NCBI GenBank assembly: GCA_026709935.1
Contig: JAPOSC010000044.1
Location: 1,911-65,910, forward strand
Origin: Thiotrichales bacterium
GTDB taxonomy: Bacteria > Pseudomonadota > Gammaproteobacteria > HK1
Reading direction: 5' to 3'
DNA length: 64,000 nucleotides
Numbering within the stretch: the stretch's first letter is position 1; each line of letters begins with the position of its first letter. This document shows positions 14,446 to 59,569 of the stretch, piece by piece. The notes under the pieces were generated by a model that saw nothing but the letters and a program-made list of their open reading frames with translations, was not told the DNA's origin and ran no database searches. A program made the translations under genes and the position numbers.

Positions 14446-14497
14446 CCCGGAAATTCACCTGCGCGCCCTCGCTTCGCGAATCGGTGAAATTTCCGGG
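14446..14497. repeat. Dispersed palindromic element, hairpin copy
   Basis: cccggaaattcacc...cggtgaaatttccggg; 14462-14497 is 35/36 identical to 38522-38557. Confidence 0.7.
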
Positions 14498-22292: not shown

Positions 22293-22388
22293 TGGCGGAA
22301 GAGGGTGGGAGTCGAACCCACCAGACACGTGGTACGCGTCTCACCGGATTTGAAGTCCGAGCGCCCCACCGGGGTGCGATCCTCTTCC
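22293..22388 (-). tRNA. selC: tRNA-Sec (anticodon UCA)
   Basis: Minus strand ggaagagg...ggacttcaaatcc...long variable arm...ggttcgactcccaccctcttccgcca; 96 nt; adjacent to selB. Confidence 0.95.
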
Positions 22389-31839: not shown

Positions 31840-32019
31840 GACGCACCCCGTTGGCGCCGTAGTGCGCGATGACCTCTGAACCACTCGGGTTCAGGGGGGC
31901 GCCTGGCGGCACGCTTCAGGCTTTCCGCTTCTCGGGCGGACCTGCACAACGGCATGCCGTTCGGCTCCCGGCAGTATGAAATCAGGCTCGAGAGGTTGCA
32001 GGCGCACTCTCGCACACCA
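31840..32019 (-). ncRNA. ssrS: 6S RNA
   Basis: About 180-nt rod: gacgcccccgtggtgtgcg... pairs with ...cgcgcactacggcgccaacggggtgcgtc; cctgaacc...ggttcag arm; canonical position between zapA and ygfA. Confidence 0.88.
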
Positions 32020-32157
32020 CGGGGGCGTCGAAATCAGTCTAATGGGAAGTCCTTGCCTCTCACAACCCGAATTCCGGGGCTCGGGCGGTGTGAAACCGGG
32101 TGATGGATTTCCGTCTGCGCGGCGATGCGGTCGGGCTCGCCCGGAAATTTCACCGAG

Positions 32158-38149: not shown

Positions 38150-38521
38150 GACCGTCGCGAGTCGCCGCCGCGAGTCACCGCCAGGAGTCACTGGGGGTCA
38201 CCGCCGCGCCCGGTCCGAGGGCCGGAGGAATGCCCGCAGTCGGACGCGGAACATGATCCGGCGCCGCGGTGCGGCACGGCGGACACTGCGATCTCCTTCC
38301 CATGCCGGGCCTTTCCCGTCCTCGTCCGACGGGTCCGGATTCGACATCGGACGAGGCCGAATCCGACCCCGGGCGCGTTCCAGTCCTACGTCGAAGGGGA
38401 CTTCGGCCGATATCGGCGGGCGGGTCGCCCGGTCCAGGATCCTGGGCTCCATCCATGCGGGATGCACGGCTGTGGGCACGGATCTGACTGTTTTCGCCGC
38501 GGAACGCGGGATAACCATCTA

Positions 38522-38557
38522 CGCGCCCTAGCTTCGCGAATCGGTGAAATTTCCGGG
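38522..38557 (+). repeat. Dispersed element copy
   Basis: cgcgccctagcttcgcgaatcggtgaaatttccggg, nearly identical to 14462-14497. Confidence 0.75.
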
Positions 38558-40884: not shown

Positions 40885-41718
40885 ATGCGCGTGCCGGACG
40901 ATCGACGCCGGCCCCGGCCCCGGCCCCGGCCCCGGCGTCAGGCGGGGTTCACCCTCGTCGAGCTTGCCGTGGTCATCGCGATCCTGGGTCTGGTGCTCGG
41001 CACGATGCTCGCTCCGTTGCGAGCCCAGATCGACGCGACGCGGATTCGGGCCGCGGAGCGGATGCTCGGCGAGATTCGCGAGGCGCTGATCGGGCACGTG
41101 ATTACCCGCGGGGCGCTGCCGTGCCCCGACGTCATCTCCGATGGCATCGACGGGGTGGCGCCCGCCGCCTGCGCTGGGGCGGCGCTGGCCGGGGTGCTGC
41201 CGTATCAGACCCTTGGGGTCGGGCGAGCGGACCCCTGGGGCCGACATTTCGGATACCGCGTCGCACAGGAGTTCTCGATCCGGGCCCTGACCGGTCAGCC
41301 ACCCGCCGCCGGCCGGCTCGATCTCACCGACACCGGCGATATCACGGTACTGGCCCGAGGCGACGATCCGGGCACCGCGGGCACCATCGAACTCAAGCAC
41401 CAGAGCGTCGCCACCGCGCTCACCCGCGCGGCCCCGGCGCTGGTGCTCTCGTTCGGGCCCGGCGGGCTCGGCGGCATCGACGCTGCGACCGGCCGCGCCC
41501 TCGCGTCGCCGTCCGGTGGCGCCATCGACGAAATCGAGAACGCCGATGCCGACGCGACGTTCGTCAGCCGCGTCCACTCGCCGGGTACCGACGGCTGCGA
41601 CGACGCCGACGAGTCGGCCGCACCACCGCCGCCATCGTGCGGGTTCGACGACATCGTGACGTGGATCTCCACCCCGGTGCTGATGGCGCGACTGGTCGAG
41701 GCTCGGGTTCTGCCGTGA
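40885..41718 (+). CDS. Prepilin-type minor pilin
   Basis: RRQAG|FTLVELAVVIAILG; DPWGRHFGY and FDDIVTW motifs. Confidence 0.88.
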   Translation: MRVPDDRRRPRPRPRPRRQAGFTLVELAVVIAILGLVLGTMLAPLRAQIDATRIRAAERMLGEIREALIGHVITRGALPCPDVISDGIDGVAPAACAGAALAGVLPYQTLGVGRADPWGRHFGYRVAQEFSIRALTGQPPAAGRLDLTDTGDITVLARGDDPGTAGTIELKHQSVATALTRAAPALVLSFGPGGLGGIDAATGRALASPSGGAIDEIENADADATFVSRVHSPGTDGCDDADESAAPPPPSCGFDDIVTWISTPVLMARLVEARVLP

Positions 41719-41876
41719 GCGCGTTCTGCCGTGAGCGTGTCCCCACCACCGTCGGGCAGGACCGGGCGCATCGTGACGTGGATTTCCACCCCGGTGCTGA
41801 TGGCGCGACTGGTCGAGGCGCGGGTTCTGCCGTGAGCGTGTTTCCGCCACCGTCGGGCAGGATCGGGCGCATCGTG
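41652..41876 (+). repeat. Tandem duplication of the prepilin gene 3' end
   Basis: Copies start at 41652 and 41769 (117-bp offset); a third begins at 41870. Confidence 0.9.
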
Positions 41877-42013
41877 CCGCGGGTCTTTGCTCCGCCACCG
41901 GGCGCGCCGGTCGCCCGACGCGCGCATGCGGCGATGGATGCATCCACGCGCTGCGGCCCGGGCCCCGGGAGCGCCCGCCCGGCGAGATCGGCGAGATCGG
42001 TGGGATGGGCGAG

Positions 42014-42781
42014 ATGAGCGCTGTGCTCGCGATCGCCCGTGTCACCGCTCTCGAAGCGGTGCGGGGCCGGTTCGCGTGGCTCGTGGTGGGATTCGCGGTG
42101 GCGGGGTGCGGGCTCGCGATGTTCGCCGGCGAGATCGCGATCACCGGGACGGAGGGCTATCGCAGTGGACTGCTCGGGGCCTGGCTGCGGTGGTGGGCGG
42201 TGTTCGCGGCCAGCGCGTTCGCGGTTTCGAGCGTGGTCGGGGACGCCCACGACAAGGGGCTGGATCTGATGCTGGCGACATCCATGCCCCGCGGTGCGTA
42301 CTGCGCCGGCAAGCTCGCCGGATTCGGCGCCGTCGCGCTGCTCCCGGCCGCGGCCGGTGCGCTGGCGCTGGCGTGGTTTGCGCCGTTGCCGCAGGTCGCG
42401 CTGTGGGGGGTCTCCCTCGCTCTGGAACTCTGCATCGTCGCGGCCGCGAGTCTGCTGTGCGCGTTCACCTTCGCCCACCTCGCATGGGCGATGAGCATGG
42501 TGCTCGGGTTCTACGTGCTCTCGCGGTCGATGACGGCGCTGCAACTCATCGCCCACGCCCCCGGGACTGATTCCGGATCGGCGGCCTGGCCGTTCATCCG
42601 GGGGTTCATCGATGCCCTCGCATATCTGTTGCCCGATCTCGACCGGTTCACCCAGTCGCAGTGGCTGATCCACGGCACCGGCACCCTGGCCGAGCTCGGC
42701 TTCGCAGCGGCGCAGACCGCAGTGTATCTAGCCCTGCTCGGCGCCGCGGCGGCGTTCGATCTCCACCGGAAGGTCCTTTGA
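42014..42781 (+). CDS. ABC-2 type exporter permease (PilI/XapC-like)
   Basis: About 6 TM helices; LATSMPRGAYCAGKL, LPDLDRF and FDLHRK motifs. Confidence 0.75.
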   Translation: MSAVLAIARVTALEAVRGRFAWLVVGFAVAGCGLAMFAGEIAITGTEGYRSGLLGAWLRWWAVFAASAFAVSSVVGDAHDKGLDLMLATSMPRGAYCAGKLAGFGAVALLPAAAGALALAWFAPLPQVALWGVSLALELCIVAAASLLCAFTFAHLAWAMSMVLGFYVLSRSMTALQLIAHAPGTDSGSAAWPFIRGFIDALAYLLPDLDRFTQSQWLIHGTGTLAELGFAAAQTAVYLALLGAAAAFDLHRKVL

Positions 42782-42926
42782 GCCCCGCCGCCTCCCCTGG
42801 AAAATCCGGGGTGGCCCGAGGCGGCGTTCGACCTCCACCGGAAGGCCCTTTGAGTCTCGCCGCCTCCCCTGGAAAGTCCGGGACGGTCCGCAGCGGCGTT
42901 CGATCTCCATCGGAAAGCCCTTTGAA
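42749..42926 (+). repeat. 2.5 x 72-bp tandem repeat of the permease 3' end
   Basis: Copies at 42749, 42821 and 42893; TGA retained at 42779, 42851 and 42923. Confidence 0.92.
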
Positions 42927-42954: not shown

Positions 42955-43656
42955 GTGTTCCGCTCCCGGGAACGGCCCGTCGCCGCGGTGCCGCAGGCGG
43001 TGCGGTGGATGCTGGCGGCGGCGCTCGCGCTCCAGATCGGCTGGCACGCCTGGCGGCCGGACCCACGGGCCGAAGCGTCGCCCCTCGGGCCGGTCCCCAC
43101 CGCCCCGGCGTTGCAGGTCGCGGCGCTGGGCGACCGGGCGGCCTTCGCCCGGCTGCTCATGCTCCGGCTGCTGATCCACGACCGCCAGCCGGGGGCGAGC
43201 ATCCCGTTCATGCGCCTCGACTACGCACGAGTCGCGGGATGGCTCGATGCGATCATCGATTTCGACCCCCGGCACGACGCGCCCCTGCTCGCGGCGGCGA
43301 GACTGTACGGGTCGGTGTCCGATCCGGTCCGGCAACGCACGATGTTCGCGCTCGTCCACCGGCGGTTCCTGGAAGACCCGGCCCGACGCTGGCCGTGGCT
43401 CGCGCATGCAGCGGTGATGGCGAAACACCGGCTCGGAGACCCGCGCCTCGCCCTGCGCTATGCCCGGGCGGTGACCGAACACGCGATCGGTCCGAACGTA
43501 CCGGCCTGGGTCCGGGACATGAGCGTGCTGATCGCGGCGGACCTCGGCGAGCTGGAGACCGCCCGGATCATCATCGGCGGCCTGCTCCACAGCGGAAGGG
43601 TCCGGGACCCGCACGAGATCCGGTTCCTCGGCGCGCGGCTCGCGGAGATCGAATGA
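42955..43656 (+). CDS. Pilus-associated hypothetical protein (PilG/XapA-like)
   Basis: N-terminal TM, then DYARVAGWLDAIIDFDPR helical region; follows the ABC-2 permease. Confidence 0.65.
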   Translation: MFRSRERPVAAVPQAVRWMLAAALALQIGWHAWRPDPRAEASPLGPVPTAPALQVAALGDRAAFARLLMLRLLIHDRQPGASIPFMRLDYARVAGWLDAIIDFDPRHDAPLLAAARLYGSVSDPVRQRTMFALVHRRFLEDPARRWPWLAHAAVMAKHRLGDPRLALRYARAVTEHAIGPNVPAWVRDMSVLIAADLGELETARIIIGGLLHSGRVRDPHEIRFLGARLAEIE

Positions 43657-43680
43657 CCCTGCGCGCGTTTTTGCGGCTCG

Positions 43681-43855
43681 AGCCTGCATTTCTTGCCGAG
43701 TTGCGAGTGAAGGCGTGGAGATGACCGCTTAGGCAAGGCGAACGCGAAACAACCCACTCAGGCATACCCGTAGGTACGGAGCGAGCTTGCGAAGCAGGCG
43801 GCATGCCTGAGTCAGATCCGCGTCCGCAGCCGTGAACTGGTTGGAAATGCAGGCT
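43681..43855. mobile_element. MITE-like element
   Basis: 12-bp terminal IR agcctgcatttc/gaaatgcaggct; internal IR actcaggcat (43756)/atgcctgagt (43803); no ORF. Confidence 0.5.
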
Positions 43856-44446
43856 TGGGCCGGTGCAGTAAATGGGCCGGTTTGAGGGAACACCGACCGC
43901 CGCGAGGAGCTGCCTCGTGTCCCCGCTCATGTCGTCGGGAGTGGATGCACTTCCGGCGGCATGGCACGCAAGTGCCTGTAGATGCTCGAAAAAGAGCAAT
44001 TCGGGGAGCAGCGAAGAACGGCGCGGGAGTCAGGTACAGTGGGTGTGACTGCATGTAACCCGACGCGCGGTCAGGAAAAACCCACACACGAGCGGGAGGA
44101 AGGATACTGCTTCGGGTGTGTTGTCAAATATCCTTAAACGACATTGATATCTTGAAAGCGACATTCTTGCTGGCGGACTTTTCTGCCATTCGGCACGGGC
44201 ACTCGTTCGGGAATGTGCGATTTTTTTCCTTTATTTACAACTGCTTGGCTCAGCGTCCAGAAGGGCGCGGAGCACCTGCGAGGCTGTGATCGGCCGTCGC
44301 AGTGAAGCGTCCGGCCGAGATTCGCCCATCGTCCCTTTCACCCTCTGAATTCGCCCCCTGCCGGCACATCGATGGTGACCGGCTCGGGACGCATTTCCCC
44401 CTCTGGGTAACACCTGGGGACACGCGGGTAACAAACGCGGCGGCTT

Positions 44447-44497
44447 GATTAGAGTCGGATGCGAAGCATTCGCATCTGCGTTGGTTGGGCTCTAATC
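44447..44497. repeat. Small nested inverted repeat
   Basis: gattagagtc...atgcgaa gca ttcgcat...ggctctaatc. Confidence 0.55.
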
Positions 44498-44865
44498 CTC
44501 TGTTTTATCTCGTTATTCGTCTCCGGCCCCTGGCCCTGAACGGGTATCTCCATGGCCTCGGGGACACGCCACCCCCCAATCACACCCACAGTACCTGACC
44601 GATCCGGCGGGGTCGGTCATCAAAACGCCGGGTGGATTCGCACTCCACGGCCAGCGACACACACACGCGCAGGGGGTCTGTACAGCCCTACTGCTTCAAC
44701 GCTTGGGAAACAGGCAGAGGCCGAGATGCGGGGCCGACGCCGATGCGTAGCGGGGGGGCCATGGCGGAGTCACGGGGCGGCGGGGTGCGCCGGCCCGTCA
44801 CATGTCCCTCCGAGATGGTCGCCGCCGACCGGGCGGTGAATCTTCAATGCACAACGGAGCGCAAC

Positions 44866-47403
44866 ATGATGAAAGCACGAACGAGCCTATGGGCGAGCCT
44901 GGCCATCGTGGCCAGCCTCGGCCTCGCCGGATGCGGCGGGTCGAGCGATAACGATGATCCGGCACCAACGCCGCCTAAAGTCACTACCCTGCCAGCCGAT
45001 CACGGCCTTATCGATGGGCGGGATACTACGATCGAGGCTGGTGGAACCCTGAAGACGTCTACTGGGACGCTGGCATGCCCTGAAGACGGCATGGATTGCA
45101 TGATCAAGGTCGTCGCGGAACTCGATGGTAGCTTTACGGCTACCTCGACGGGTGGTGAAGCCACGTTTACGGCGGATGAGCCCCCGACGCCTCCCAAGAC
45201 TGTCGCCGAGATGCAGATGGAGACCTTCGACAATGCGAAGGCTGCCATCGAAGCGGCGGCGACTGAGGCTGCGGCCCAAGCAGCCTATGACACGGTTGAC
45301 AAGGACGACATCACCGCCAAGCAGGCTGATGATTTGCAGACTGCGCTCAGCACGCGGATCGGTGAGATTCAAGCAGCGGCGCTGAAGCCTTTTAATGACG
45401 CGAAGGCCGCCATTGAAGGGGCTGCTACCGAGGATGCAGCGCAGGCGGCTTATGACGCCGTTGATCAGGATGCCATCACCGGGAAGCAGGCTGCTGATTT
45501 GGCTGCCGCACTCAGTATGAAGATCAGTATGCTTCAGAAGGACGGGCGGATTGTCACTCAGAAAGCAGAACTAGCGCGTCTCTCTGGCTTGATCGACACG
45601 TCCGACCTGTCGGATCAGGATAAGGTAGATGCCGCCAGACTAGCAATCACCGCTCTTCAGACTGCGCTGGATTCCGGCTCGCCTGATCTGACCGAGGAAG
45701 ATAAGGCTCAGTACGTAACTCAGTTGGGCAACGCCAATACAGCCGTCACGGCAGCGCAGGGTGGGATTGACCGGGATACTCGTCGGACGACTCAGATGGC
45801 GGATCTCGGGACTGCCGGTACCAATCTCCAAGCTGCGCTCGATGCGTTTGCCGGGAAGACGGCTACGAAGGATCAGCTTGATGATGCGAAGGCGGCTCGT
45901 ACCGCTCTGAAAGCTAAACTCGACGACGCCAAGGATCTGAGCGACGCCGAGAAGGCTCAGTACCAGTCTGCGTATAACAGTGCAGCGGGTACGATTGCCT
46001 CTGCGGAAACGGCCTTTAATACGGCTGAGACCAAGAGGATAACTGAGGAGACGGAAGCGACGGAAGAAATGGCCGAGGCCCTATACAGTGCAATCAAACC
46101 ACGCGGTGGCGCTACGTCCTTCAATTTCGGGACAACAGAAATAACTGCCTCAACGGATGTTAGCGAAGCCCAGAGCCTCGATGCTGGATACGGTGACGGC
46201 ACCACAGATGATGCGGCGGAGAACCAAACCAAGATCCTTATTGCTATCGATACCGATGACACTCCATCCGCCACTAACCCAGAAGTCTTCACGCTTTCAG
46301 AAGATAAGAAGACGACGGTCGCTTCCATCGGGGATTGGACGGGTAAGAGGTTCTATGCCCAAGAAGAGAGCGGGGATAAGCGCCTCCATGAGGCATTCGT
46401 CTACTCCTATGTCGGAGCACCTACGCCAGGCGATAAGTTCAGTACCGTCTATGGACTAGGAAGTGAAGAGGACAATTACGAGTTGGAGGCTGCGGAAGCG
46501 GACGGCGATAGCGATGGCGGTAGTGATGCATTTATCCCAGAGAGAGTGACGATTCCGAGCGTTACGCGGACGGCTGGTGATTATACGTTCGAAAAAGCGA
46601 GGGATCGTGATAGTGACATTGAAGTGCCGGGTAGTTATCACGGCGTAGCTGGCGTCTATGTTTGTTTGCCAACCAATGATGCCGGTACCTGTTCAGCCTC
46701 GGTCACGGGAGCTGGACTCGTGCTTGGTACGACTGATCAAACATGGACATTCGAAGTTAGCAACCGGGACGCAAAGGTTTCAGATAAATCCGATACTTCC
46801 TACGCCTCATTTGGTTGGTGGATAGAGAAAGACTCGGATGGCGACCCTAGCACTGTAAGCGTATTCGAGGATTTCAGAGGAACTGTCGGAACTGGCCTCA
46901 CTTCAACCGTCTTCAATGGCTTAGGGGGTACGGCAACCTACAATGGAGGCGCTGTTGGCAAGTACGCACTCAGGAGTTCTACGGGTGGCAAGAACGAATC
47001 TGGTCACTTCGTGGCAACCGCAATACTTGAGGCGGATTTTGGTACTGCTGGCGCTAGTGGTACCGCAGGCGATATTTCAGGCACCATCGACAATTTCAAG
47101 ATCGGTGACGCTGGAGAGGATCGAGACTGGTCTATCGCTCTTAAAGAATCTGACTTTGACTCCTCTACAGCAAATGTTGTTACTGCGGGCGAGTCTGATG
47201 ATGGAACGATTTGGACTATGGGCAGTGGAGACGACGTAAACGCAGCCAATGCGTCAGGTGGGTGGCAGATGAATCTCCGCAACAATACTAATAACGGCGA
47301 CGGTAACGTTCCCGAAGTCGCAACCGGAACGTTCTCCTCTGAGTTCGGTTCAGAGGGCAGTATGGTCGGTGCCTTCGGTGCGAGCTTAGAGAAGGCTCAG
47401 TAA
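44866..47403 (+). CDS. Large surface lipoprotein with TbpB-like C-terminal beta-barrel
   Basis: Lipobox LAG|C; two 55-aa helical repeats; C-terminal GTATYNGGAVG...ISGTIDNF...ATGTFSSEF...MVGAFGA; lower GC than flanks. Confidence 0.75.
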   Translation: MMKARTSLWASLAIVASLGLAGCGGSSDNDDPAPTPPKVTTLPADHGLIDGRDTTIEAGGTLKTSTGTLACPEDGMDCMIKVVAELDGSFTATSTGGEATFTADEPPTPPKTVAEMQMETFDNAKAAIEAAATEAAAQAAYDTVDKDDITAKQADDLQTALSTRIGEIQAAALKPFNDAKAAIEGAATEDAAQAAYDAVDQDAITGKQAADLAAALSMKISMLQKDGRIVTQKAELARLSGLIDTSDLSDQDKVDAARLAITALQTALDSGSPDLTEEDKAQYVTQLGNANTAVTAAQGGIDRDTRRTTQMADLGTAGTNLQAALDAFAGKTATKDQLDDAKAARTALKAKLDDAKDLSDAEKAQYQSAYNSAAGTIASAETAFNTAETKRITEETEATEEMAEALYSAIKPRGGATSFNFGTTEITASTDVSEAQSLDAGYGDGTTDDAAENQTKILIAIDTDDTPSATNPEVFTLSEDKKTTVASIGDWTGKRFYAQEESGDKRLHEAFVYSYVGAPTPGDKFSTVYGLGSEEDNYELEAAEADGDSDGGSDAFIPERVTIPSVTRTAGDYTFEKARDRDSDIEVPGSYHGVAGVYVCLPTNDAGTCSASVTGAGLVLGTTDQTWTFEVSNRDAKVSDKSDTSYASFGWWIEKDSDGDPSTVSVFEDFRGTVGTGLTSTVFNGLGGTATYNGGAVGKYALRSSTGGKNESGHFVATAILEADFGTAGASGTAGDISGTIDNFKIGDAGEDRDWSIALKESDFDSSTANVVTAGESDDGTIWTMGSGDDVNAANASGGWQMNLRNNTNNGDGNVPEVATGTFSSEFGSEGSMVGAFGASLEKAQ

Positions 47404-47418
47404 GCATCACTAGCACAA

Positions 47419-47449
47419 GGGGCGCTCTACCCGGAGCGCCCCATTTCTT
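47419..47449 (+). terminator. Rho-independent terminator
   Basis: ggggcgctc-tacccg-gagcgcccc followed by atttctt, just after the lipoprotein stop. Confidence 0.75.
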
Positions 47450-47481
47450 CCCTCTAGGAATCGTTCAGGAGCAAATGACCA

Positions 47482-47715
47482 ATGGCCACCGAGCGATTCC
47501 TGCACATGCGGCTCTCCCGCGAGGATTGCGCGACTCTTGATGCGCTAGTAGACCGGGTGAACCGCGAGGCAGGGCTGAGAGGGAAGAAACTTCCCCGTGT
47601 CGGGAAGTCTCGGGACTATCACAGTCAGGACTATCACAGCCAGAGTGACGTGGTGCGACTGGCGATCGCGGAAGCGTTGTTGAGGCGGTGCGAGGAGCAG
47701 CATCAAGCTGCCTAG
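47482..47715 (+). CDS. Ribbon-helix-helix (CopG-like) small DNA-binding protein
   Basis: Alternating beta strand FLHMRLS, helix EDCATLDALV, second helix SQSDVVRLAIAEAL. Confidence 0.55.
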   Translation: MATERFLHMRLSREDCATLDALVDRVNREAGLRGKKLPRVGKSRDYHSQDYHSQSDVVRLAIAEALLRRCEEQHQAA

Positions 47716-48190
47716 CAGTACACGACCCCGCCAGGGGCGCAGGACACGTAGGACAGACGATTTACGGAGAGGGTGGCGGCGTCGCCTCATAAGGATTCGT
47801 CGCCTCACCAGGATTCAGAGTCTTTCGAGGGCGCTCCCGGCGTCGTCATCCTCTCCACCTTCACCGCGTAGTGAGCCGCTCAGGGAGCGGTGTCGGTGTC
47901 TCGCGGGGATGTCTCAGATGGTCCCCCCGGGACGACTCCGACCGGCACCGCTCCCCCTTCTGTCTCGCCGTTGCGATGGTATCAGGCCCCATGGGAGAGG
48001 CGTCATCATGACTGACATCTGTTGGTGATTGCACCGGCCCCGGCGTGTCTCCCATCACGTCGGGGCCACCTCTACCTCTCCCCCGCACGCCATCTCTCCC
48101 ACACCCGCCATGACCCGCAATCGAGTGCGGTGATACCGCGTTCAACGCCGCGAAAACGTAGAACGCTCGCAAGGCAAACGTTGGTTCGAT

Positions 48191-48229
48191 CAGAGCCGCG
48201 TCCGCAGTCGTAGGCTGGTGAGAAATGCA
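48191..48229 (+). repeat. Direct repeat of 43813-43851
   Basis: 32/39 identical by manual alignment. Confidence 0.75.
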
Positions 48230-48497
48230 CCTCCAGGCCCCGGGACCGGTGCTCCGGCGGCCTACAAGCCCCGGGGCGATCGCCTACGTACGACGGCCTC
48301 CGGTTCGGATTCGCCGCTCGATTCGCGCAGATAGCATCGTGAACCGTGCCGGTGCGGAGACTCCACCGATTTGGGCTTTACGAAGCGCTCGGCGGGCGTC
48401 ACGGGGATTCGACGCAGTCCGCGCACCGCACGAGTGGTCGGTCTCCGGCAGGGGAGGCCGGTCTCCACCCGTCGCAACCTTTGGAGGTGCTTCGAAC

Positions 48498-49214
48498 ATG
48501 CCGCGCAGACAACACGGATTCACCCTCGTCGAAATCGCCATCGTGCTGGTGGTGGTCGGACTGCTTCTCGGCGGGATCCTCAAGGGCCAGGATCTCGTCA
48601 ACGGCGCCCGGGTCCGCAACCTCGCGGACATGAACGCCGGGGTGCAGGCCGCCTACTACGGGTTCGTCGACCGCTACCGGCAGGTTCCCGGCGACATGAC
48701 CGCTGCGGCCGTCGCCTCGGCCGTCGGCGACGCCTCCATCACCGTGGGCGGTGATGCGAACGGCAGTATCGATCCGGCCGACTGGGAGGAGGCGTCGGCG
48801 GCGTGGGTGCATCTCACGAGAGCCGGTCTGCTCCAGGGCAGCTACGACGGCGGGGCCACGAGTGCGACGCGGTACCGCGCCGCCACCGTGGCGCCCCAGA
48901 ACGCCTTCAATGGCTACATGCTGCTCGGCCGGACCCGGGATTACTCGACCACCGCCGGTGCTCCGACCGCGACTCGGGCGCCGCGGCTTGGGCTCGTCCT
49001 CGGAGACAACATCCCGGTCGATATCGCCCGTGAGCTCGACTTGAAGATCGACGACCAGCGTCCGTTGACTGGCGCACTCCGATTCACCGGGACGACCACC
49101 GTCTCGCACCGCGGCGTGAGCGAGGCGACAACGACATGCATGACCAGCGCAACCACCAACGAGTACGACATCGCGGGCGACGCGCAGCAATGCAATCTCG
49201 TCTATCTCTACTGA
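48498..49214 (+). CDS. Type IV prepilin, candidate major pilin
   Basis: ggagg RBS; RRQHG|FTLVEIAIVLVVVG; DLKIDD motif; C-terminal Cys pair. Confidence 0.88.
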   Translation: MPRRQHGFTLVEIAIVLVVVGLLLGGILKGQDLVNGARVRNLADMNAGVQAAYYGFVDRYRQVPGDMTAAAVASAVGDASITVGGDANGSIDPADWEEASAAWVHLTRAGLLQGSYDGGATSATRYRAATVAPQNAFNGYMLLGRTRDYSTTAGAPTATRAPRLGLVLGDNIPVDIARELDLKIDDQRPLTGALRFTGTTTVSHRGVSEATTTCMTSATTNEYDIAGDAQQCNLVYLY

Positions 49215-49341
49215 GCCCATGGGCCCGTGCCATGGGTAAGTGGCGGTCCGCGCGTATCGGCGACGCGGGCCGTCACGCCATGACGCGCGAGGGTTCGCCA
49301 TGGCGTGGAGGGCATGGCCCGAAATTTCACCGATTCGCGAA

Positions 49342-49406
49342 CCAGTGAGAAATGCGCATCAAGGCGTATGTGAAGGAGACGAGCATTGGGCCGCATTTCT
49401 CACCGG
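49342..49406. repeat. 15-bp inverted repeat (ccagtgagaaatgcg / cgcatttctcaccgg)
   Basis: 14/15 complementary; shares gtgagaaatgc with 48219-48229; immediately preceded by a reverse copy of the dispersed element (49318-49343). Confidence 0.7.
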
Positions 49407-49635
49407 CCCTCGAACCGGAGCCATTCAAGCCTGAGCGGTTCTCCGAGCCCTCCGAAAACTGGCGAAATTTCCGGTCTGCTGTCTCGCTTCGACTCCTGAA
49501 TGCTCGGGAAAGCTCGTGCATACAGGTCGCAGACCCCGGGCAGAATTTCAAAGTGAGATGCTTTCAGGAGAAGGGGAGAGGGGGGTGCCGCCACGGGCGG
49601 AGATTCCCTACAATCGTAACCAGGAGAACAATCCG

Positions 49636-49911
49636 ATGAACACCACCAGCTTCGACACCCTCGACGCGATGCGGCGACTCGAACAGGCGGGCATGGACAG
49701 GGCTCAGGCGGAAGCGACCGTGGAGACGATGCGCGACGCTCAGACCGCGCTCGCGACGAAAGCCGACTTGTTCGAGACGAAAGCCGAGTTGAAAGCCGAC
49801 TTGCTCGAGCTGCGCGCGGATCTCTACCGGGCATTGTGGATTCAGGGTGCGGGAATCGTTGCGATCAACAGCGCGTTCATCGTGACCGCCGCCGCTCTCG
49901 GACTCATCTGA
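49636..49911 (+). CDS. CCDC90/DUF1640-like head-neck-stalk-anchor protein
   Basis: FDTL..MRRLEQAGM..AQAEA head, LATKADL neck, heptads, C-terminal TM; aggag RBS. Confidence 0.75.
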   Translation: MNTTSFDTLDAMRRLEQAGMDRAQAEATVETMRDAQTALATKADLFETKAELKADLLELRADLYRALWIQGAGIVAINSAFIVTAAALGLI

Positions 49912-50020
49912 CCCTTCGTCGCCCGCAAGGCGTGCATCGCCCGAAGTGGATCGCCGGGTGTCCTGCGCGGATGCCATGCGACCGCCGTCGCGCTCGGACT
50001 CATCTGACCCCTCCCCGCCC

Positions 50021-50785
50021 GTGAGGCACACACCGCCCGAGGCGGAACGTCCGGGGGCTCGCACGGACGCCATCGGGTTTTCCGCCGTGACCAGGCGGCA
50101 CGGACGCCGTCCGGTAGTGGTCGATCTCTCGTTCGAGGTTCGGGCGGGCGAGATCTTCGGCCTCGTCGGGACCAATGGCGCTGGCAAGACCACCTGCATC
50201 AAGTGCCTGCTCGACCTGTGTCACCTCGACGCGGGCCGGATCCATATCTTCGGCCGGTCCGCGACCGCGCCGGAATCGCGTCGTTCGCTTGCCTACCTGC
50301 CCGAGCGCTTCGTGCCCCCGCGTCACCTCCTCGGGCGGGAGTTCCTGCATTTGATGTCGAGGCTGCACGCAGTGGACCCGGGCCTGGACTCGACCCGGGG
50401 CCGGCAGCGCGAGGTGCTCGCCGCCCTGGACCTGGCGCCGTCCGCTCTGGACGAGCCGGTCCGCCACTACTCGAAGGGCATGGCGCAGAAGCTCGGGCTC
50501 GCGGCCTGCCTGCTCGCCGAGAAGCCTCTGCTCGTGCTCGACGAACCGATGAGCGGCCTCGACCCCAAGGCGCGGGTGCTCGCAAGGCGCTATCTCCGCC
50601 GCTTGCGCGACGGCGGCGCGACGGTGTTCCTCAGCACCCACTTGCTCGCAGACACCGGCGATCTCTGCGACCGCCTGGGAGTGCTCCACGACGGCGCGAT
50701 GCGGTTCGTCGGATCTCCGGCCTGCCTGCGCGAACGCTTTCCCGCCGCCACCCTCGAGGAATCCTGGATCGCCTGCGTCTCGTGA
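50021..50785 (+). CDS. ABC exporter ATP-binding protein (PilH/XapB-like)
   Basis: GTNGAGKT, YSKGMAQK, LDEPMSGLDP and STH motifs; start uncertain. Confidence 0.88.
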   Translation: MRHTPPEAERPGARTDAIGFSAVTRRHGRRPVVVDLSFEVRAGEIFGLVGTNGAGKTTCIKCLLDLCHLDAGRIHIFGRSATAPESRRSLAYLPERFVPPRHLLGREFLHLMSRLHAVDPGLDSTRGRQREVLAALDLAPSALDEPVRHYSKGMAQKLGLAACLLAEKPLLVLDEPMSGLDPKARVLARRYLRRLRDGGATVFLSTHLLADTGDLCDRLGVLHDGAMRFVGSPACLRERFPAATLEESWIACVS

Positions 50786-56719: not shown

Positions 56720-58367
56720 CGGCGCGCAGGGTCACTCGCATCTCGAACGTCGCATCCTCGCCGGTGGTGCCGGCGGCTCCGGTCAGGGCGTGTTCCGATC
56801 CGAGTTCCAGCGGCAGACTCAGGATCCGCACGTGCTCGACCCCGGAGGGTGCGGCGAGCGCATCCGCGAGCCGACGGACGGTGTCGATGGCTGCACGATA
56901 GTCGCCGTCGAACGGTTCGATCCGTGCGCTGAAGCGCGCAGCCTGGAACTGCCGCCGCGAATCGTGCGGCGGCCGGTGGCCGGAGGGTCGCGTTTCGGTC
57001 CGGTCGTCACCCGGCGCGCTGACGGGCGCTTCCGGATCGTCGCTCGTGCGCCACGAGAGCGCCTCGATATGCACCCGCGGAAAGTCTGCGAGGGCCTGGC
57101 TCAGGTGCGCGAGAACATCCACCGGATCCGCCTGCCGGCGTTGCCGCGCGTTCACGGCCGAGACCACCCGTTCCAGCTCGACCGGCTCGGCCGGGGTGGA
57201 CGGCAGCGCCGCCTGCGCGGCCCGATACCGGCGCTCGTAGAGCGTGGCGTGTACGGCGAGTGTATCGGCGTGCCCGCGCGCGGCGACTCCTTCGAGAGCG
57301 ACGACTCCCCCGAACAGACCGGCCCCGACCGCGATGACCGCACTCCCGGCTTTCAGGGCGAGACCGATCCGCCCTGCCGAATGCCGGCGGATCTGATCGG
57401 GCGTCGCGTAGTGGTTGCGTGGCGGGTGGCCTGCGACCAGAAGGTGGACGAACAGCCGATCGGCGCTCGCTTCGCCGTCCCATCGGCGCAATCCGAGCCG
57501 ACGGGCGACCGTGGCGAGATCCACCACGCGGCACCGCGCCGGGGTGTCCTCGTCGTCGTTACCGCCCGCGCTGCCCGTGCCATCTTTTGCGTTCACGTCG
57601 GCGTCATGCGCCGCAAGCGCTCGCCGCAACCCTTCGAGCGGCGCGCCATGGCTCAGCACGTGAACGTCGAGGCGATCGCCGGATGCTCCGGAGCCCCGGC
57701 TCGCCAGATTCGCCAGGTTCCCCGGATTGCGCAGGTAGCGGCGAGTCCGTTCGATCTCGGCCAGGATGTGGGACTCGTGCCCGCCGGCGGCGGGATGGGG
57801 GAGGGCGGCGAGCCGCGAGAATCGCAGTTTCCCGCCCCGGAAGCAGGTCTGCCGGAGTCCGCCGCCGGACTGTCGCGAGACCACCAACACATGCTCGCCC
57901 ACCGCCCCGACCGCTTTCAGCATCGGTGCGGTGAGCATGGCGGGGGAATGAATGCCGGCGAGCGGGACGCCGCGCTCCTCCATCGCGGCGAGCCAGCCGG
58001 CGAGCGTCTCGGGCCGGGTAATCGCGCTCAGGCGCACGCGGTCGTCGCGCCGGCCGTCCGGCTCCCGCCCGAGCCGCGCCGCGTGCAGGTAGCGTGCGCC
58101 GGGGAAGGCCCGGGCCGCCCGCGCGCGCATCAGCGCCCCGCGTTCCCAGGCGAGCACGTGCGGAACCGTCTCCTCGCGGAACTCCTCCTCCACCACGTCG
58201 GCCACGACGTGGGTGATCTCGTCCGGGAACCGATCGAGGTAGCGCGCGAATTCGGCGCGTCCGTCTTCGTCCGCCCCGAACGGGAACGGGCCGAGCAGTT
58301 TCGAGCCGTGCCGGTGGTACGCAACCAGCCCCGCGCCCGAAATCACGAAGACCCGTCGCGCCGCCAT
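56694..58367 (-). CDS. PilM/PilN (GspL-like) fused alignment protein
   Basis: Cytoplasmic N-terminal domain (VVADVVEEEFREETVP), central TM, periplasmic C-terminal domain; ATG overlaps the platform gene stop. Confidence 0.6.
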   Translation of the reverse strand: MAARRVFVISGAGLVAYHRHGSKLLGPFPFGADEDGRAEFARYLDRFPDEITHVVADVVEEEFREETVPHVLAWERGALMRARAARAFPGARYLHAARLGREPDGRRDDRVRLSAITRPETLAGWLAAMEERGVPLAGIHSPAMLTAPMLKAVGAVGEHVLVVSRQSGGGLRQTCFRGGKLRFSRLAALPHPAAGGHESHILAEIERTRRYLRNPGNLANLASRGSGASGDRLDVHVLSHGAPLEGLRRALAAHDADVNAKDGTGSAGGNDDEDTPARCRVVDLATVARRLGLRRWDGEASADRLFVHLLVAGHPPRNHYATPDQIRRHSAGRIGLALKAGSAVIAVGAGLFGGVVALEGVAARGHADTLAVHATLYERRYRAAQAALPSTPAEPVELERVVSAVNARQRRQADPVDVLAHLSQALADFPRVHIEALSWRTSDDPEAPVSAPGDDRTETRPSGHRPPHDSRRQFQAARFSARIEPFDGDYRAAIDTVRRLADALAAPSGVEHVRILSLPLELGSEHALTGAAGTTGEDATFEMRVTLRADVPDGTET

Positions 58368-59569
58368 CAGATGCCGATGGTGGCGATCAGGTCGTAGATC
58401 GGCCCGAGCACGGAGAAGATCACCCAGAACAGGATCGCGCCGAGTACGACGGTGATAGTCGGGCCGATCATCGCCTGGAGCTGTTCCATCGACTCCGATA
58501 CGCCGCGGTTGTAGTAGCGGCTCACGTTGAGCAGCGCGGCGTCCAGAGCGCCGGTGCTCTCGCCGAGGCGCAGCATCCGCAGTACCAGGGGCGAGAACAG
58601 CCCCGTCGCCTCGAACCCCGCACTGATGCCGGCGCCCTCCGCGATCTTCGCCCCCGCCCGACGGGTGGCGTCCTCCACCGCCCGGTTTCCGGCGATGCCC
58701 TCGCAGATGCGGATGCACTCCAGCACTGTGATCCCGGATGCGTAGAGCAGCGCGAAGCTGCCCGCGAACCGGGCGAGGAGGATCCGCTGCATGATCGGAC
58801 CCACCAGCCAGGTCCGGAGCTTGAACGCATCCACCGCATGCGCCACCGCGGGACTCGCCCGGCCGAGCGCGCGCAGGAGAAGGAAGGCGGCGACGGGCGC
58901 CGTGAGAGCGAGATACCAATACGCCACGAACAGATCCGAGACGAGGATGAGCGCCCGCGTGTGGGCCGGAAGCGCTTGCCCCATCCCCTCGATGAAGGAG
59001 ACGAGCTGCGGCACGAGATGGGTCATCAGGAAGAACACCACGAGCATGACCACGGCGCCCGCGATGGCCGGATAGGTGAGCAGCCGGCGCATCAGCGCGA
59101 TCTGTTCGTTCTGCCACTTCAGGTGCTCGTTGAGGTGGCCGAGGATCTCTCCCACCCGACCCGACAGCTCGCCGGCGTGGACGAGGTTGACGAAGACCGC
59201 CTCGAATACCCGCGGGTGCTCGCGCATCGCGCCGGACAGCGTCGCGCCACCCTCGATCGACACCACCATGTCCGCCAGCACCTCGCGCAGGCGCGGGTTG
59301 CCGGCGGAGTCGCGCAGCGTGGCGAGTCCCTCCAGCACCGGCACCCCGGCGGTCAGGAGCTGCTCCATGTGGAAGCAGAACCCGACGAGATCGCCGCGGC
59401 GCACCCGGGCGCGCCGGAGCGCGCGTCGGACTCTCGCCTCGCGGAAGGTAACGAGGTCGAGTCCGAGCCGCGCGAGCCGGGCCTCCAGGTCGGCCGGGTT
59501 GGCGGCCTCTATCTCGCCGGTGCGCTTGCGGCCGCGCTCGTCGACCGCCTTGTATCGCATCAGCGGCAT
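58367..59569 (-). CDS. GspF/PilC/MshG-family platform protein
   Basis: LLTAGVPVLEGL, AGELSG and LGESTGALD motifs. Confidence 0.92.
   Translation of the reverse strand: MPLMRYKAVDERGRKRTGEIEAANPADLEARLARLGLDLVTFREARVRRALRRARVRRGDLVGFCFHMEQLLTAGVPVLEGLATLRDSAGNPRLREVLADMVVSIEGGATLSGAMREHPRVFEAVFVNLVHAGELSGRVGEILGHLNEHLKWQNEQIALMRRLLTYPAIAGAVVMLVVFFLMTHLVPQLVSFIEGMGQALPAHTRALILVSDLFVAYWYLALTAPVAAFLLLRALGRASPAVAHAVDAFKLRTWLVGPIMQRILLARFAGSFALLYASGITVLECIRICEGIAGNRAVEDATRRAGAKIAEGAGISAGFEATGLFSPLVLRMLRLGESTGALDAALLNVSRYYNRGVSESMEQLQAMIGPTITVVLGAILFWVIFSVLGPIYDLIATIGI

What the first reader, a model, noticed from the sequence alone, without database searches (positions are those of the whole stretch)
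43813..48229. Repeat-bounded lower-GC cassette inserted in the pilus operon
Seen: 39-bp direct repeats (32/39 identical) at 43813 and 48191 bracket about 4.4 kb containing the lipoprotein, a terminator and the RHH gene. Three sampled 60-nt lines of the lipoprotein gave 28-36 GC versus 47 in a flanking pilin line. The cassette separates the ABC permease/partner from the major pilin and ABC ATPase. Inference: horizontally acquired cargo, moved between MITE-like ends or swapped by recombination at these repeats, i.e. a variable surface-protein slot.
Basis: partly seen in the sequence, partly recalled or inferred. Interest (0 to 1): 0.7.

Follow-up and report, generated by a model that had tools for sequence, protein, structure and literature searches.

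The report
Phase-variable surface-lipoprotein cassette in sponge symbiont
The low-GC block is a foreign gene cassette for a TbpB-like surface lipoprotein, missing from sister species and sitting beside a dispersed repeat, and a 571-bp DNA switch upstream of the gene is found in both orientations in wild populations of one strain of this uncultured sponge symbiont.

Summary
A 40-nt direct repeat (33/40 identical) brackets 4.4 kb of low-GC DNA: GC3 is 0.56 in the lipoprotein against 0.83-0.91 in host genes. Seven sister species keep the flanking genes adjacent with no cassette, so it is an insertion. Conspecific strains carry it at this locus.

The repeats are not MITE ends. They belong to a dispersed intergenic repeat family. 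The right copy looks resident, because sister species L004 has one at the same place without a cassette. The left copy sits at the cassette's left end at two other loci as well. No excision junction was seen.

Three things are new.
1. Segment 44029-44599, bounded by 23-nt inverted repeats about 270 nt upstream of the lipoprotein ATG, is inverted in a conspecific genome. The crossover maps inside the repeats. Both orientations occur in one SNP haplotype across samples and within one sample, so this is an active invertible switch.
2. The cassette belongs to a family with at least five loci per genome. Most share a ~1.1-kb leader carrying the switch. All share the signal peptide, a small 3' gene and a hairpin. 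The lipoprotein bodies are unrelated and are swapped between strains and slots.
3. The lipoprotein has a TbpB-type C-terminal barrel.

The recombinase, the promoter and the ON orientation are unknown.

The parts
43003..43656 (+). Left flanking host gene ('partner', about 217 aa, no known domain). Host homology with sister species ends at its stop codon.
   Evidence: tblastn finds it at 77-88% identity in L005-L012, where it lies 190-525 nt upstream of the pilin gene. blastn homology with L005 ends at 43652.
43779..43854 (+). It marks the left border of the cassette.
   Evidence: A homologous unit sits directly left of related cassettes in L052 and in L001, where a ~105-nt hairpin element is interposed.
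43855..44865 (+). Conserved ~1.0-kb non-coding leader. It is shared at 71-82% identity by at least five related cassettes that carry unrelated lipoprotein bodies.
   Evidence: blastn and alignment with L001, L052, L053, L057, L060, L061. Logan contig depth is 5-12x that of the flanks.
44029..44051 (+). Left inverted repeat (IR-L): GTCAGGTACAGTGGGTGTGACTG.
   Evidence: the repeat finder pair I5, 23 nt, 91% complementary. Near-invariant in all related leaders, which are otherwise 71-80% identical.
44029..44599 (.). 571-bp invertible segment (inverton). It ends 266 nt upstream of the lipoprotein ATG.
   Evidence: It is inverted in the conspecific 3.82-Mb genome (L044 7133->6564, 96.5% identity), with the inner IR SNP exchanged and the outer SNP retained. 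Both orientations occur in one SNP haplotype in runs X8 versus X11, and they are mixed in X9/X10.
44577..44599 (-). Right inverted repeat (IR-R). Its reverse complement reads GTCAGGTACTGTGGGTGTGATTG.
44866..47403 (+). Lipoprotein gene (845 aa). Signal peptide and lipobox LAGC (Cys23). Small beta domain 39-103, long helical stalk 113-409, beta 'handle' 439-655, C-terminal TbpB-type barrel 661-841.
   Evidence: AF2 mean pLDDT 82.8. Foldseek hit to TbpB C-lobe 5kkx_A, probability 1.00, E 2e-3. hhalign 97% probability to the Pfam TbpB_B_D region of P0071. 73 homologs, all unannotated.
44854..44956 (+). Conserved RBS, signal-peptide and lipobox block. It acts as the 5' homology arm where lipoprotein bodies are exchanged.
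   Evidence: Homology with the related cassettes ends at 44948-44956. The L003/L058 strain pair is 99% identical up to this block and unrelated after it. L003 homology starts at 44854.
46060..47400 (+). Allelic C-terminal half of the lipoprotein gene (handle plus barrel), replaced between conspecific strains.
   Evidence: Window versus L044: about 100% nt identity over 44900-46000, 19-75% over 46060-47400, then 95-100% again. Protein identity is 95-100% for aa 1-410 against 25-59% after that.
47419..47442 (+). Terminator-like GC-rich hairpin followed by a T-rich tail, after the lipoprotein gene.
47482..47715 (+). Small conserved gene (77 aa, possibly ribbon-helix-helix). It closes every cassette of the family.
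   Evidence: 69-79% identical (blast; alignment identities run a little higher) in cassettes with unrelated lipoproteins. 64 clusters, all in this symbiont clade, with at least 6 paralogs on the 3.82-Mb contig. The fold is not confirmed.
47883..47955 (+). ~75-nt structured hairpin element that recurs after cassette genes.
   Evidence: Conserved in L001, L002 (twice), L052, L053. 27 predicted pairs, 3 of them with compensatory changes, and many G-U pairs.
48159..48233 (+). Right copy of the repeat unit (core 48190-48229). Host homology resumes at 48233-48237.
   Evidence: blastn with L005 resumes at 48233 and with L004 at 48237. L004 has a copy at the same place upstream of its pilin gene with no cassette.
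48498..49214 (+). Right flanking host gene: prepilin-type pilin (238 aa).
   Evidence: Pfam N_methyl, E 1e-7. 82-94% identical in sister species.

Best explanation
Region 43779-48233 is a horizontally acquired cassette in an uncultured, high-GC gammaproteobacterial sponge symbiont. It lies between two conserved host genes (partner and pilin), beside a resident copy of a dispersed ~75-nt intergenic repeat. The cassette brought or kept a second repeat copy at its left end, which explains the direct repeats.

The cassette encodes a surface-type lipoprotein with lipobox, helical stalk and a TbpB-like handle plus barrel. It also carries a terminator, a small conserved possibly DNA-binding protein and a structured 3' hairpin.

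Inferred: expression is phase-variable. Shown: the 571-bp segment bounded by 23-nt inverted repeats in the conserved leader inverts by recombination inside the repeats. Inferred: the inversion reorients a promoter or terminator relative to the gene. Inferred: the recombinase acts in trans, because at least four loci per genome carry the same inverted repeats and none encodes a recombinase.

Shown: the lipoprotein body, or only its C-terminal half, is exchanged between strains and between slots, with breakpoints at conserved cassette sequences. Inferred: this happens by homologous recombination using the leader/signal-peptide block at the 5' end and the small gene and hairpin at the 3' end as arms.
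For: Insertion. Seven sister species have partner and pilin 190-525 nt apart with no cassette. Composition is foreign.

Repeat family. More copies lie at 1-41, 38466-38489, 49335-49359 and in the related loci. L012 has one copy in the empty site. L004 has one at the pilin-proximal position and a synteny breakpoint exactly there. L052 and L001 have one at the cassette's left end, and L057 has one at the right end.

Inversion. The L044 segment is flipped, with the outer IR SNP retained and the inner one exchanged. With identical SNP haplotypes, the X8 unitig joins the left flank to the interior in window orientation. X11 contigs join the reverse complement of the right flank (CGCCGGATCG) to the same interior end, and the reverse complement of the interior start to IR-R plus the right flank. 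In X9/X10 the interior unitig breaks inside the IR, with loose ends of both junction types.

Family. L052, L053, L060, L061 and L057 share leader, IRs, signal peptide, small gene and hairpin, but not the lipoprotein body. Contig depth is 5-12x at the conserved ends. The small gene has at least 6 paralogs on one genome.

Swapping. (L003 versus L058: flank 99% identical, bodies different, and the L003 body 98% identical to the window's).

Fold..
Against: No recombinase gene was found in the cassette, in the window ORFs tested, or beside the related cassettes. No sigma-70 consensus promoter was found in 43650-48520, so the link between orientation and expression is inferred and the ON orientation is unknown. 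Only one of about 10 assembled copies is flipped. The read evidence comes from Logan contigs, not raw reads. Related cassettes elsewhere in the genome blur contig evidence outside the haplotype-specific SNPs. Direct repeats flank only this cassette; at other loci a repeat sits on one side only, so integration at the repeat is not shown. Pfam does not hit the window lipoprotein directly, and the Foldseek hit is modest (TM 0.44 on the target). No Slam or TonB-dependent partner gene is nearby.
Confidence: 0.72

Rival explanations
1. One reading: the 39-nt direct repeats are the active ends of a mobile unit (MITE-like, or attL/attR of an integrative cassette), and the unit moves or excises by recombination between them.
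For: The repeat pair is far beyond chance. Host homology with L005 and L004 resumes exactly at the right repeat. An empty site (L012) holds a single copy. A synteny breakpoint in L004 lies exactly at a repeat copy. Repeat copies border other cassettes.
Against: The ends are direct, not inverted, and there is no target-site duplication. No integrase or transposase is present. No in-register deletion junction was seen in four runs. The two joints that were seen (skips of 4331 and 4369) are out of register, are supported by only 22-25 nt, and have single-copy depth, which fits other repeat loci. The two copies are only 83% identical. Related cassettes have a repeat on one side only. The observed exchange breakpoints are at the signal-peptide block and the gene's 3' end.
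Confidence: 0.13
2. The repeats play no part. They are ordinary REP-like intergenic repeats, common in this genome, and two of them happen to lie on either side of an island that entered by homologous recombination of flanking DNA or by some other route.
For: At least five related copies lie in the 64-kb window, at sites without cassettes (14461-14497, 38466-38557, 49318-49470, 1-41). Related units are found in sister species between other genes (L006 9057-9092, L004 601-628).
Against: The repeat lies exactly at a cassette border in four independent loci, and at the L004 rearrangement breakpoint. That association is closer than chance placement in intergenic DNA would readily give, but it has not been quantified genome-wide.
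Confidence: 0.3
3. The inversion is an occasional RecA-mediated accident between short inverted repeats and has no regulatory role. The lipoprotein is expressed constitutively or not at all.
For: Only one assembled copy is flipped. No promoter was detected in the segment. No invertase was found.
Against: A 23-nt imperfect repeat is a poor RecA substrate. Yet both orientations are seen in one haplotype, with no SNP differences between them, in three samples, and they coexist in one sample. The IR blocks are the longest invariant stretches of a leader that is otherwise 71-82% identical across loci. The position just upstream of a surface-protein gene is the classic inverton arrangement.
Confidence: 0.12
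4. The cassette is ancestral at this site and was lost in the sister species. Its low GC reflects selection on the protein, not foreign origin.
For: Cassettes of the same family exist elsewhere in sister genomes (L057 in the L004 genome; L001).
Against: Seven species lack it and show no remnant of leader, gene or hairpin in the gap. GC3, a mostly synonymous measure, is 0.56 against about 0.87. A 98% identical gene body sits in another slot of another strain.
Confidence: 0.05

Closest known systems
Bacteroides fragilis capsular-polysaccharide invertible promoters under the trans-acting Mpi invertase; more generally 'invertons' (from my own knowledge; inverton surveys are in PMC11602134 and PMC11892184, found, titles and abstracts only)
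   Same: Several unlinked surface-structure loci in one genome each carry a short invertible segment bounded by the same inverted repeat, with no recombinase at the locus. Mixed orientations occur within a population.
   Different: Here the host is an uncultured gammaproteobacterial sponge symbiont. The cargo is a lipoprotein, not a polysaccharide operon. The segment sits in a 1.1-kb conserved leader. No invertase has been identified and the promoter is unmapped.
Escherichia coli fimS switch (FimB/FimE) (from my own knowledge)
   Same: An invertible intergenic element of a few hundred bp lies upstream of a surface-structure gene, and recombination occurs inside short inverted repeats.
   Different: fimS has 9-bp repeats and adjacent recombinase genes at a single locus. 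Here the repeats are 23 nt, there are several loci, and no recombinase is adjacent.
Mycoplasma penetrans mpl lipoprotein family, and the M. pulmonis vsa and M. bovis vsp systems (from my own knowledge)
   Same: A multigene family of surface lipoproteins in which each gene is switched by site-specific DNA inversion. The signal-peptide and 5' regions are conserved and the bodies vary.
   Different: The phylum and cell envelope are different and the proteins are unrelated. Here the genes are dispersed in separate chromosomal slots rather than clustered.
Neisseria/Moraxella TbpB-type, Slam-dependent surface lipoproteins (Pfam TbpB_B_D, PF01298)
   Same: Lipobox, a flexible N-terminal linker, and a handle plus 8-stranded barrel lobe. 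Allelic diversity between strains is strong.
   Different: There is a single lobe preceded by a ~300-residue helical stalk. Pfam gives no direct hit. No Slam or TonB-dependent receptor gene is adjacent. The ligand is unknown.
REP/BIME-type dispersed intergenic repeats as recombination hot spots (from my own knowledge)
   Same: Short, imperfect, multicopy intergenic units that compose into mosaics (direct copy, hairpin element, second core in L001) and lie at rearrangement breakpoints.
   Different: The sequence is unrelated to known REPs. The association with cassette borders has not been quantified. No RAYT-type transposase was seen.

Membership tests
Invertible promoter switch (inverton) | Short intergenic segment bounded by inverted repeats | tested here: met
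   23-nt IRs at 44029-44051 and 44577-44599 with 525 nt between them.
Invertible promoter switch (inverton) | Both orientations exist in nature within one strain | tested here: met
   L044 is flipped. With the same SNP haplotype, X8 is unflipped, X11 is flipped, and X9/X10 are mixed. This rests on contigs, not raw reads.
Invertible promoter switch (inverton) | Conservative crossover inside the repeats | tested here: met
   The outer IR SNP (position 10) stays with the flank and the inner SNP (position 21) moves with the segment in L044. The crossover therefore lies between IR positions 11 and 20.
Invertible promoter switch (inverton) | A promoter or terminator inside the segment, so that orientation sets expression of the adjacent gene | tested here: inconclusive
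   The consensus scan found no sigma-70-like site. By eye there are only weak candidates: + strand TTGGTT-N16/17-TTTTAT near 44484-44516, and - strand TTGACA (44127-44122)-N15-TATCCT. A terminator-like hairpin lies on the - strand at 44096-44081. No RNA runs hold the locus.
Invertible promoter switch (inverton) | A dedicated tyrosine or serine recombinase | tested here: inconclusive
   None in the cassette, in the roughly 35 window ORFs scanned, or beside 8 related cassettes. The rest of the genome could not be searched.
TbpB-like surface lipoprotein (PF01298 barrel; Slam substrates) | Signal peptide with lipobox cysteine | tested here: met
   MMKARTSLWASLAIVASLGLAGC, with Cys23 nearly invariant in 61 homologs.
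TbpB-like surface lipoprotein (PF01298 barrel; Slam substrates) | C-terminal handle plus 8-stranded barrel homologous to TbpB_B_D | tested here: met
   Pfam does not hit the window protein directly. The family profile aligns aa 685-841 to the TbpB_B_D region of P0071 with 97% probability, E 5e-11. The AF2 model matches TbpB C-lobe 5kkx_A with probability 1.0.
TbpB-like surface lipoprotein (PF01298 barrel; Slam substrates) | Adjacent Slam (DUF560) translocator or TonB-dependent receptor partner | tested here: not met
   No such domain appears in the genes flanking this cassette or the eight related ones.
TbpB-like surface lipoprotein (PF01298 barrel; Slam substrates) | Surface exposure and ligand binding | not testable with these tools
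   Needs an experiment.
MITE / transposon | Terminal inverted repeats, target-site duplication, transposase (or a parent element) | tested here: not met
   The ends are direct repeats. There is no duplicated flanking sequence and no transposase. IS elements occur only as secondary insertions in L050 and L057.
Site-specific integrative island (attL/attR) | Direct repeats at both ends and a single copy in the empty site | tested here: inconclusive
   Direct repeats are present. Single copies are present in L012 and L004 but not detectable in L005-L008. Related cassettes have a repeat on one side only.
Site-specific integrative island (attL/attR) | Integrase and a detectable excision product | tested here: not met
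   No integrase. No in-register junction.
Integron gene cassette | An attC site with R''/R' core sites after each ORF, and an integron integrase | tested here: not met
   The 75-nt hairpin recurs after cassette ORFs. It lacks GTTRRRY cores, its pairs rely on G-U (which favours an RNA-level role), and no IntI is present.
Ribbon-helix-helix (CopG/Arc/MetJ) regulators | N-terminal beta strand followed by two helices; sequence-family match | tested here: inconclusive
   AF2 monomer (pLDDT 69) shows an extended N-terminus, helix 13-32, a disordered loop and helix 54-76. Foldseek gives no match. The best profile hit among solved structures is ORF56 (2k9i_A), which I recall as the RHH protein of plasmid pRN1, at E 0.12. 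No Pfam hit.

The most novel reading that the evidence does not exclude
Sponge-associated gammaproteobacteria carry a dispersed, lineage-specific system of at least five chromosomal slots. Most slots hold a conserved 1.1-kb leader with an identical invertible switch, and all hold a common signal peptide, a swappable TbpB-like lipoprotein body and a conserved small regulator. A single trans-acting invertase flips all the switches. The small protein cross-regulates the loci. Each cell therefore shows a changing subset of surface lipoproteins to the host's phagocytic cells or to phages.
Probability: 0.3. Interest if true: 0.75.

Novelty: new member of a known kind. Interest (0 to 1): 0.6.

Why it matters
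How uncultured sponge symbionts persist inside an animal that feeds by engulfing bacteria, and under heavy phage pressure, is an open question. Here a dominant symbiont lineage shows a surface-lipoprotein family that varies in two ways. It varies by reversible DNA inversion, with both states seen in wild populations of one strain. It also varies by exchange of the receptor-like domain between strains and slots. This gives concrete targets: orientation ratios per host individual, the invertase, and the lipoprotein's ligand. All can be studied from metagenomes and by heterologous expression. It also shows that a repeat-bounded low-GC island can hide a regulatory switch that composition scans miss.

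Tried and rejected
- Rfam found nothing in the cassette, either over the whole window at gathering thresholds or over 43500-50000 at E<=1. The only hit was a chance miRNA match.
- The sigma-70 consensus scan found no promoter.
- I considered a sigma-54 reading of CTGGTGAGAAATGCA. I rejected it because GG and GC are 8 nt apart, not the 10 nt that sigma-54 needs (by inspection).
- I considered an attC/integron reading of the 75-nt hairpin and rejected it.
- An exact-pattern scan of the JGI metagenome contigs for the IR gave two unrelated chance matches.
The flipped junctions were instead read from loose ends on the window sequence.
- No RNA runs hold the gene, so there are no expression data.
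- The lipoprotein has no sequence match among solved structures. The small protein has only E>0.1 hits and no structural match.
- Protein P0077 is not on record.
- The out-of-register 'skip' joints (43804->48136 and 43804->48174) are read as other repeat loci, not excision.
- Runs X1, X4 and X6 (window haplotype) show only the window orientation. In X7 a short TTGGGGGG loose end is ambiguous, because related cassettes have similar flanks.

Full report
**Origin of the window.** The window is about 68% GC. Identical proteins occur in sponge-metagenome assemblies and in MAGs labelled Thiotrichales, Chromatiales or Gammaproteobacteria. The window is 99.9% identical to a 245.7-kb scaffold, seen here as L045.

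**Check of the observation.**
- The direct repeat is present at 43812-43851 and 48190-48229, with 33/40 positions identical.
- In 40 shuffles of the surrounding 8 kb that roughly keep its dinucleotide content, the best 40-mer direct match was 30/40 or less.
- A profile search shows the homologous unit is about 75 nt long: 43779-43854 and 48159-48233.
- GC falls to 50-60% between 44.0 and 47.4 kb, against 65-79% outside.
- GC3 is 0.56 for the lipoprotein gene, and 0.50 in its last two thirds. It is 0.72 for the small gene and 0.83-0.91 for 30 host genes. Codon usage is far from the host pool.
- The block holds a lipoprotein gene (44866-47403, lipobox LAGC), a terminator-like hairpin (47419-47442) and a 77-aa gene (47482-47715).

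**It is an insertion relative to sister species.** A scan of species-representative genomes with the pilin protein returned 40 loci.
- In seven close species (L005-L010, L012; flanking proteins 60-90% identical) the gene order is conserved: large unknown protein, pseudopilin, membrane protein, partner, pilin, ABC ATPase. Partner and pilin are only 190-525 nt apart there. More distant relatives (L013, L015, L016) are similarly compact; in L014 the gap is about 1.7 kb.
- Against L005, host homology stops at 43652, the partner gene's stop codon. It resumes at 48233, immediately after the right repeat.
- Conspecific strains (97-99.9% nt identity; L044-L050, L056) all carry the cassette at this site.
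- The cassette was therefore gained in this species' lineage and has been kept since.

**What the repeats are.**
- The unit is one member of a dispersed intergenic family. Further copies or variants lie at 1-41, 14461-14497, 38466-38557 (- strand) and 49318-49470 in the window, and in the related loci.
- L012 has a single copy in its empty partner-pilin gap.
- L004 is the closest other species (pilin 94% identical). It has a copy at exactly the position of the window's right copy, upstream of the pilin gene, with no cassette. Left of that copy its synteny switches to a different locus, MFS...Transglut_core2/TPR_9. A chromosomal rearrangement breakpoint therefore lies at the repeat.
- At that TPR_9 locus, other genomes (L001, L052) have a repeat copy followed by a cassette of the same family.
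- In L057 a copy lies at the right end of a cassette.
- I conclude that the right copy is resident and the left copy belongs to the cassette's left border.
- Integration by recombination between repeat copies is plausible but not shown. There are no terminal inverted repeats, no target duplication, no integrase or transposase, and no in-register excision junction in four runs.

**The invertible switch.**
- The repeat finder listed a 23-nt inverted repeat at 44029-44051 and 44577-44599.
- In L044, from a 3.82-Mb contig of a conspecific strain, the 571-bp segment between the outer ends of these repeats is inverted (L044 7133->6564, 96.5% identity). Both flanks remain colinear.
- The two repeat arms differ at positions 10 and 21. 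In L044 the position-10 base has stayed with each flank and the position-21 base has moved with the segment. This places the crossover between positions 11 and 20 of the repeat.
- Runs X8-X11 carry exactly the L044 SNP haplotype: 14 interior SNPs and 3-4 in the left flank.
- In X8, a 381-nt unitig runs from the left flank through IR-L into the interior in window orientation.
- In X11, a 356-nt unitig carries the same interior. It is preceded by CGCCGGATCG, the reverse complement of 44600-44609, which is specific to this locus's right flank. Another X11 contig joins the reverse complement of 44049-44078 to IR-R and the right flank.
- In X9 and X10, which come from one sample, the interior unitig stops at 44039, inside the repeat. 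Loose ends of both flipped junctions are present there.
- One strain haplotype therefore exists in both orientations, between samples and within one sample. That is what an active phase-variation switch looks like.
- Runs with the window haplotype (X1, X4, X6) show only the window orientation.
- Among assembled copies, this locus in L045, L048, L050 and L056 and the related cassettes in L001, L052, L053, L057, L060 and L061 are unflipped. L044 is flipped.

**Unknowns about the switch.**
- No consensus promoter was found.
- By eye there are weak candidates on both strands, and a terminator-like hairpin on the - strand at 44096-44081.
- I cannot say which orientation is ON.
- No recombinase is encoded in the cassette, in the window ORFs scanned, or next to any related cassette (and the gene tables).
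- Because the same repeat arms occur at several loci, a trans-acting invertase is the natural inference.

**A cassette family.**
- In the same 3.82-Mb genome, at least four further loci carry a lipoprotein gene: L052, L053, L058 and L060.
- Three of them have a leader 75-81% identical to 43855-44865 with near-identical repeat arms. L058 lacks the leader.
- All four share the same RBS and signal-peptide block, a 67-69-aa homolog of the small protein, and the 75-nt hairpin. Their lipoprotein bodies are unrelated.
- The small protein has 64 clusters, all from this symbiont clade, including six on that one contig.
- Contig depth over the leader, signal peptide and small gene is 5-12x that of the flanks. 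The lipoprotein body has flank depth.

**Swapping of lipoprotein bodies.**
- The window and L044 are about 100% identical over 44900-46000, only 19-75% over 46060-47400, and 95-100% after the stop codon.
- L003 and L058 are 99% identical through an oligopeptide-ABC/Uma2 locus and up to the signal peptide. After that, L003 carries the window's lipoprotein body (98%) and L058 carries a different pair of genes.
- At the TPR_9 slot, L001 holds a 70% relative of the window's lipoprotein and L052 holds unrelated ones.
- The visible breakpoints lie at conserved cassette sequences, not at the 39-nt repeats.

**The proteins.**
- The AF2 model of the lipoprotein (pLDDT 82.8) shows a disordered lipidated linker, a small beta domain, a ~300-residue helical stalk, a beta handle and a C-terminal barrel.
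- Foldseek's best specific match is the TbpB C-lobe (5kkx_A, probability 1.00, E 2e-3).
- The family profile aligns the barrel to the region of P0071 that scores as Pfam TbpB_B_D.
- Homologs are all unannotated. They occur in MAGs assigned to several phyla and apparently deposited as one set, judging by their locus-tag style. This may be real cross-phylum transfer, or mis-binning of a compositionally odd island.
- The small protein could be ribbon-helix-helix, but this is unconfirmed.
- The 75-nt hairpin has compensatory and G-U changes. This favours an RNA-level role such as termination or stabilisation.

**Comparison with known systems and verdict.**
- The system works like known invertons, above all the multi-locus Bacteroides capsule promoters that are flipped in trans. 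It also resembles the Mycoplasma lipoprotein families switched by inversion.
- It meets the structural and population criteria for an inverton. The promoter and recombinase criteria remain open.
- It is not a MITE, an integron cassette or a demonstrable att-flanked island.
- I rate it a new member of a known kind, in an ecologically interesting and uncultured host.

Noticed in passing
window 22293-22388 (-) and 31842-32028 (-): A tRNA-Sec gene (ARAGORN and Rfam, 73.6 bits) and a 6S RNA gene (60.1 bits).
   Followed up: no
window 42739-42925: A 72-nt tandem repeat, 2.6 copies, 86% matches, between the membrane-protein gene and the partner gene. It is also present in conspecific strains.
   Followed up: no
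window 41652-41882: A ~114-130-nt tandem duplication covering the 3' end of the pseudopilin gene and the DNA after it (81% identity between copies). L005 and L012 match both copies.
   Followed up: no
window 49884-50073: A 96-nt tandem repeat, 2 copies, 77% matches, spanning the end of a 91-aa gene and the start of the ABC ATPase ORF.
   Followed up: no
window 14473-14493 (-), 38533-38553 (-), 49321-49341 (+): A perfect 21-nt repeat, GAAATTTCACCGATTCGCGAA, at three intergenic sites. It appears to be a variant module (..TCGGTGAAATTTCC..) of the same dispersed repeat family as the finding's repeats (section 5c).
   Followed up: partly
window 49323-49425 (composite to 49470): A 43-nt-arm inverted-repeat element after the pilin gene, 85% identical to L001 8833-8962. 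In L001 it sits between a repeat copy and the cassette. The core GTGAGAAATGC thus also flanks the pilin gene (48218 and 49345).
   Followed up: partly
loci L006, L008, L009, L010, L012, between the ABC ATPase and the fused ABC gene (equivalent to window 50785/50793): A second variable slot. The two genes are 8 nt apart in the window, but 0.7-6 kb of extra DNA separates them in sister species (5.4 kb in L006, 6.1 kb in L010).
   Followed up: no
L050 6125-7108; L057 12317-13441: IS elements (IS1595-type, and DDE_Tnp_1 / IS4-type) are inserted inside cassettes of this family, interrupting or separating lipoprotein genes.
   Followed up: no
L004 9668-9742 (OZ244909.1): In the closest sister species, the pilin locus is joined at a repeat copy to the TPR_9 locus. 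This is a chromosomal rearrangement with its breakpoint at the repeat.
   Followed up: yes
L002 10361-12596: Two successive 'gene + 75-nt hairpin' units follow the small gene in a lower-GC (56%) contig. The contig also carries GmrSD, patatin and methylase genes, so the cassette lies in a defence-island-like context.
   Followed up: partly
window 58367-59569 (-): A T2SS/T4P platform protein gene (Pfam T2SSF), so a secretion or pilus apparatus is encoded about 9 kb downstream of the pilin gene.
   Followed up: no
homologs P0024, P0031, P0042, P0067: Lipoprotein homologs are labelled as coming from Acidobacteriota, Chloroflexi, Rhodospirillaceae and Albidovulum MAGs. The locus-tag style suggests one deposition. 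This is either cross-phylum spread or mis-binning of a low-GC island.
   Followed up: no
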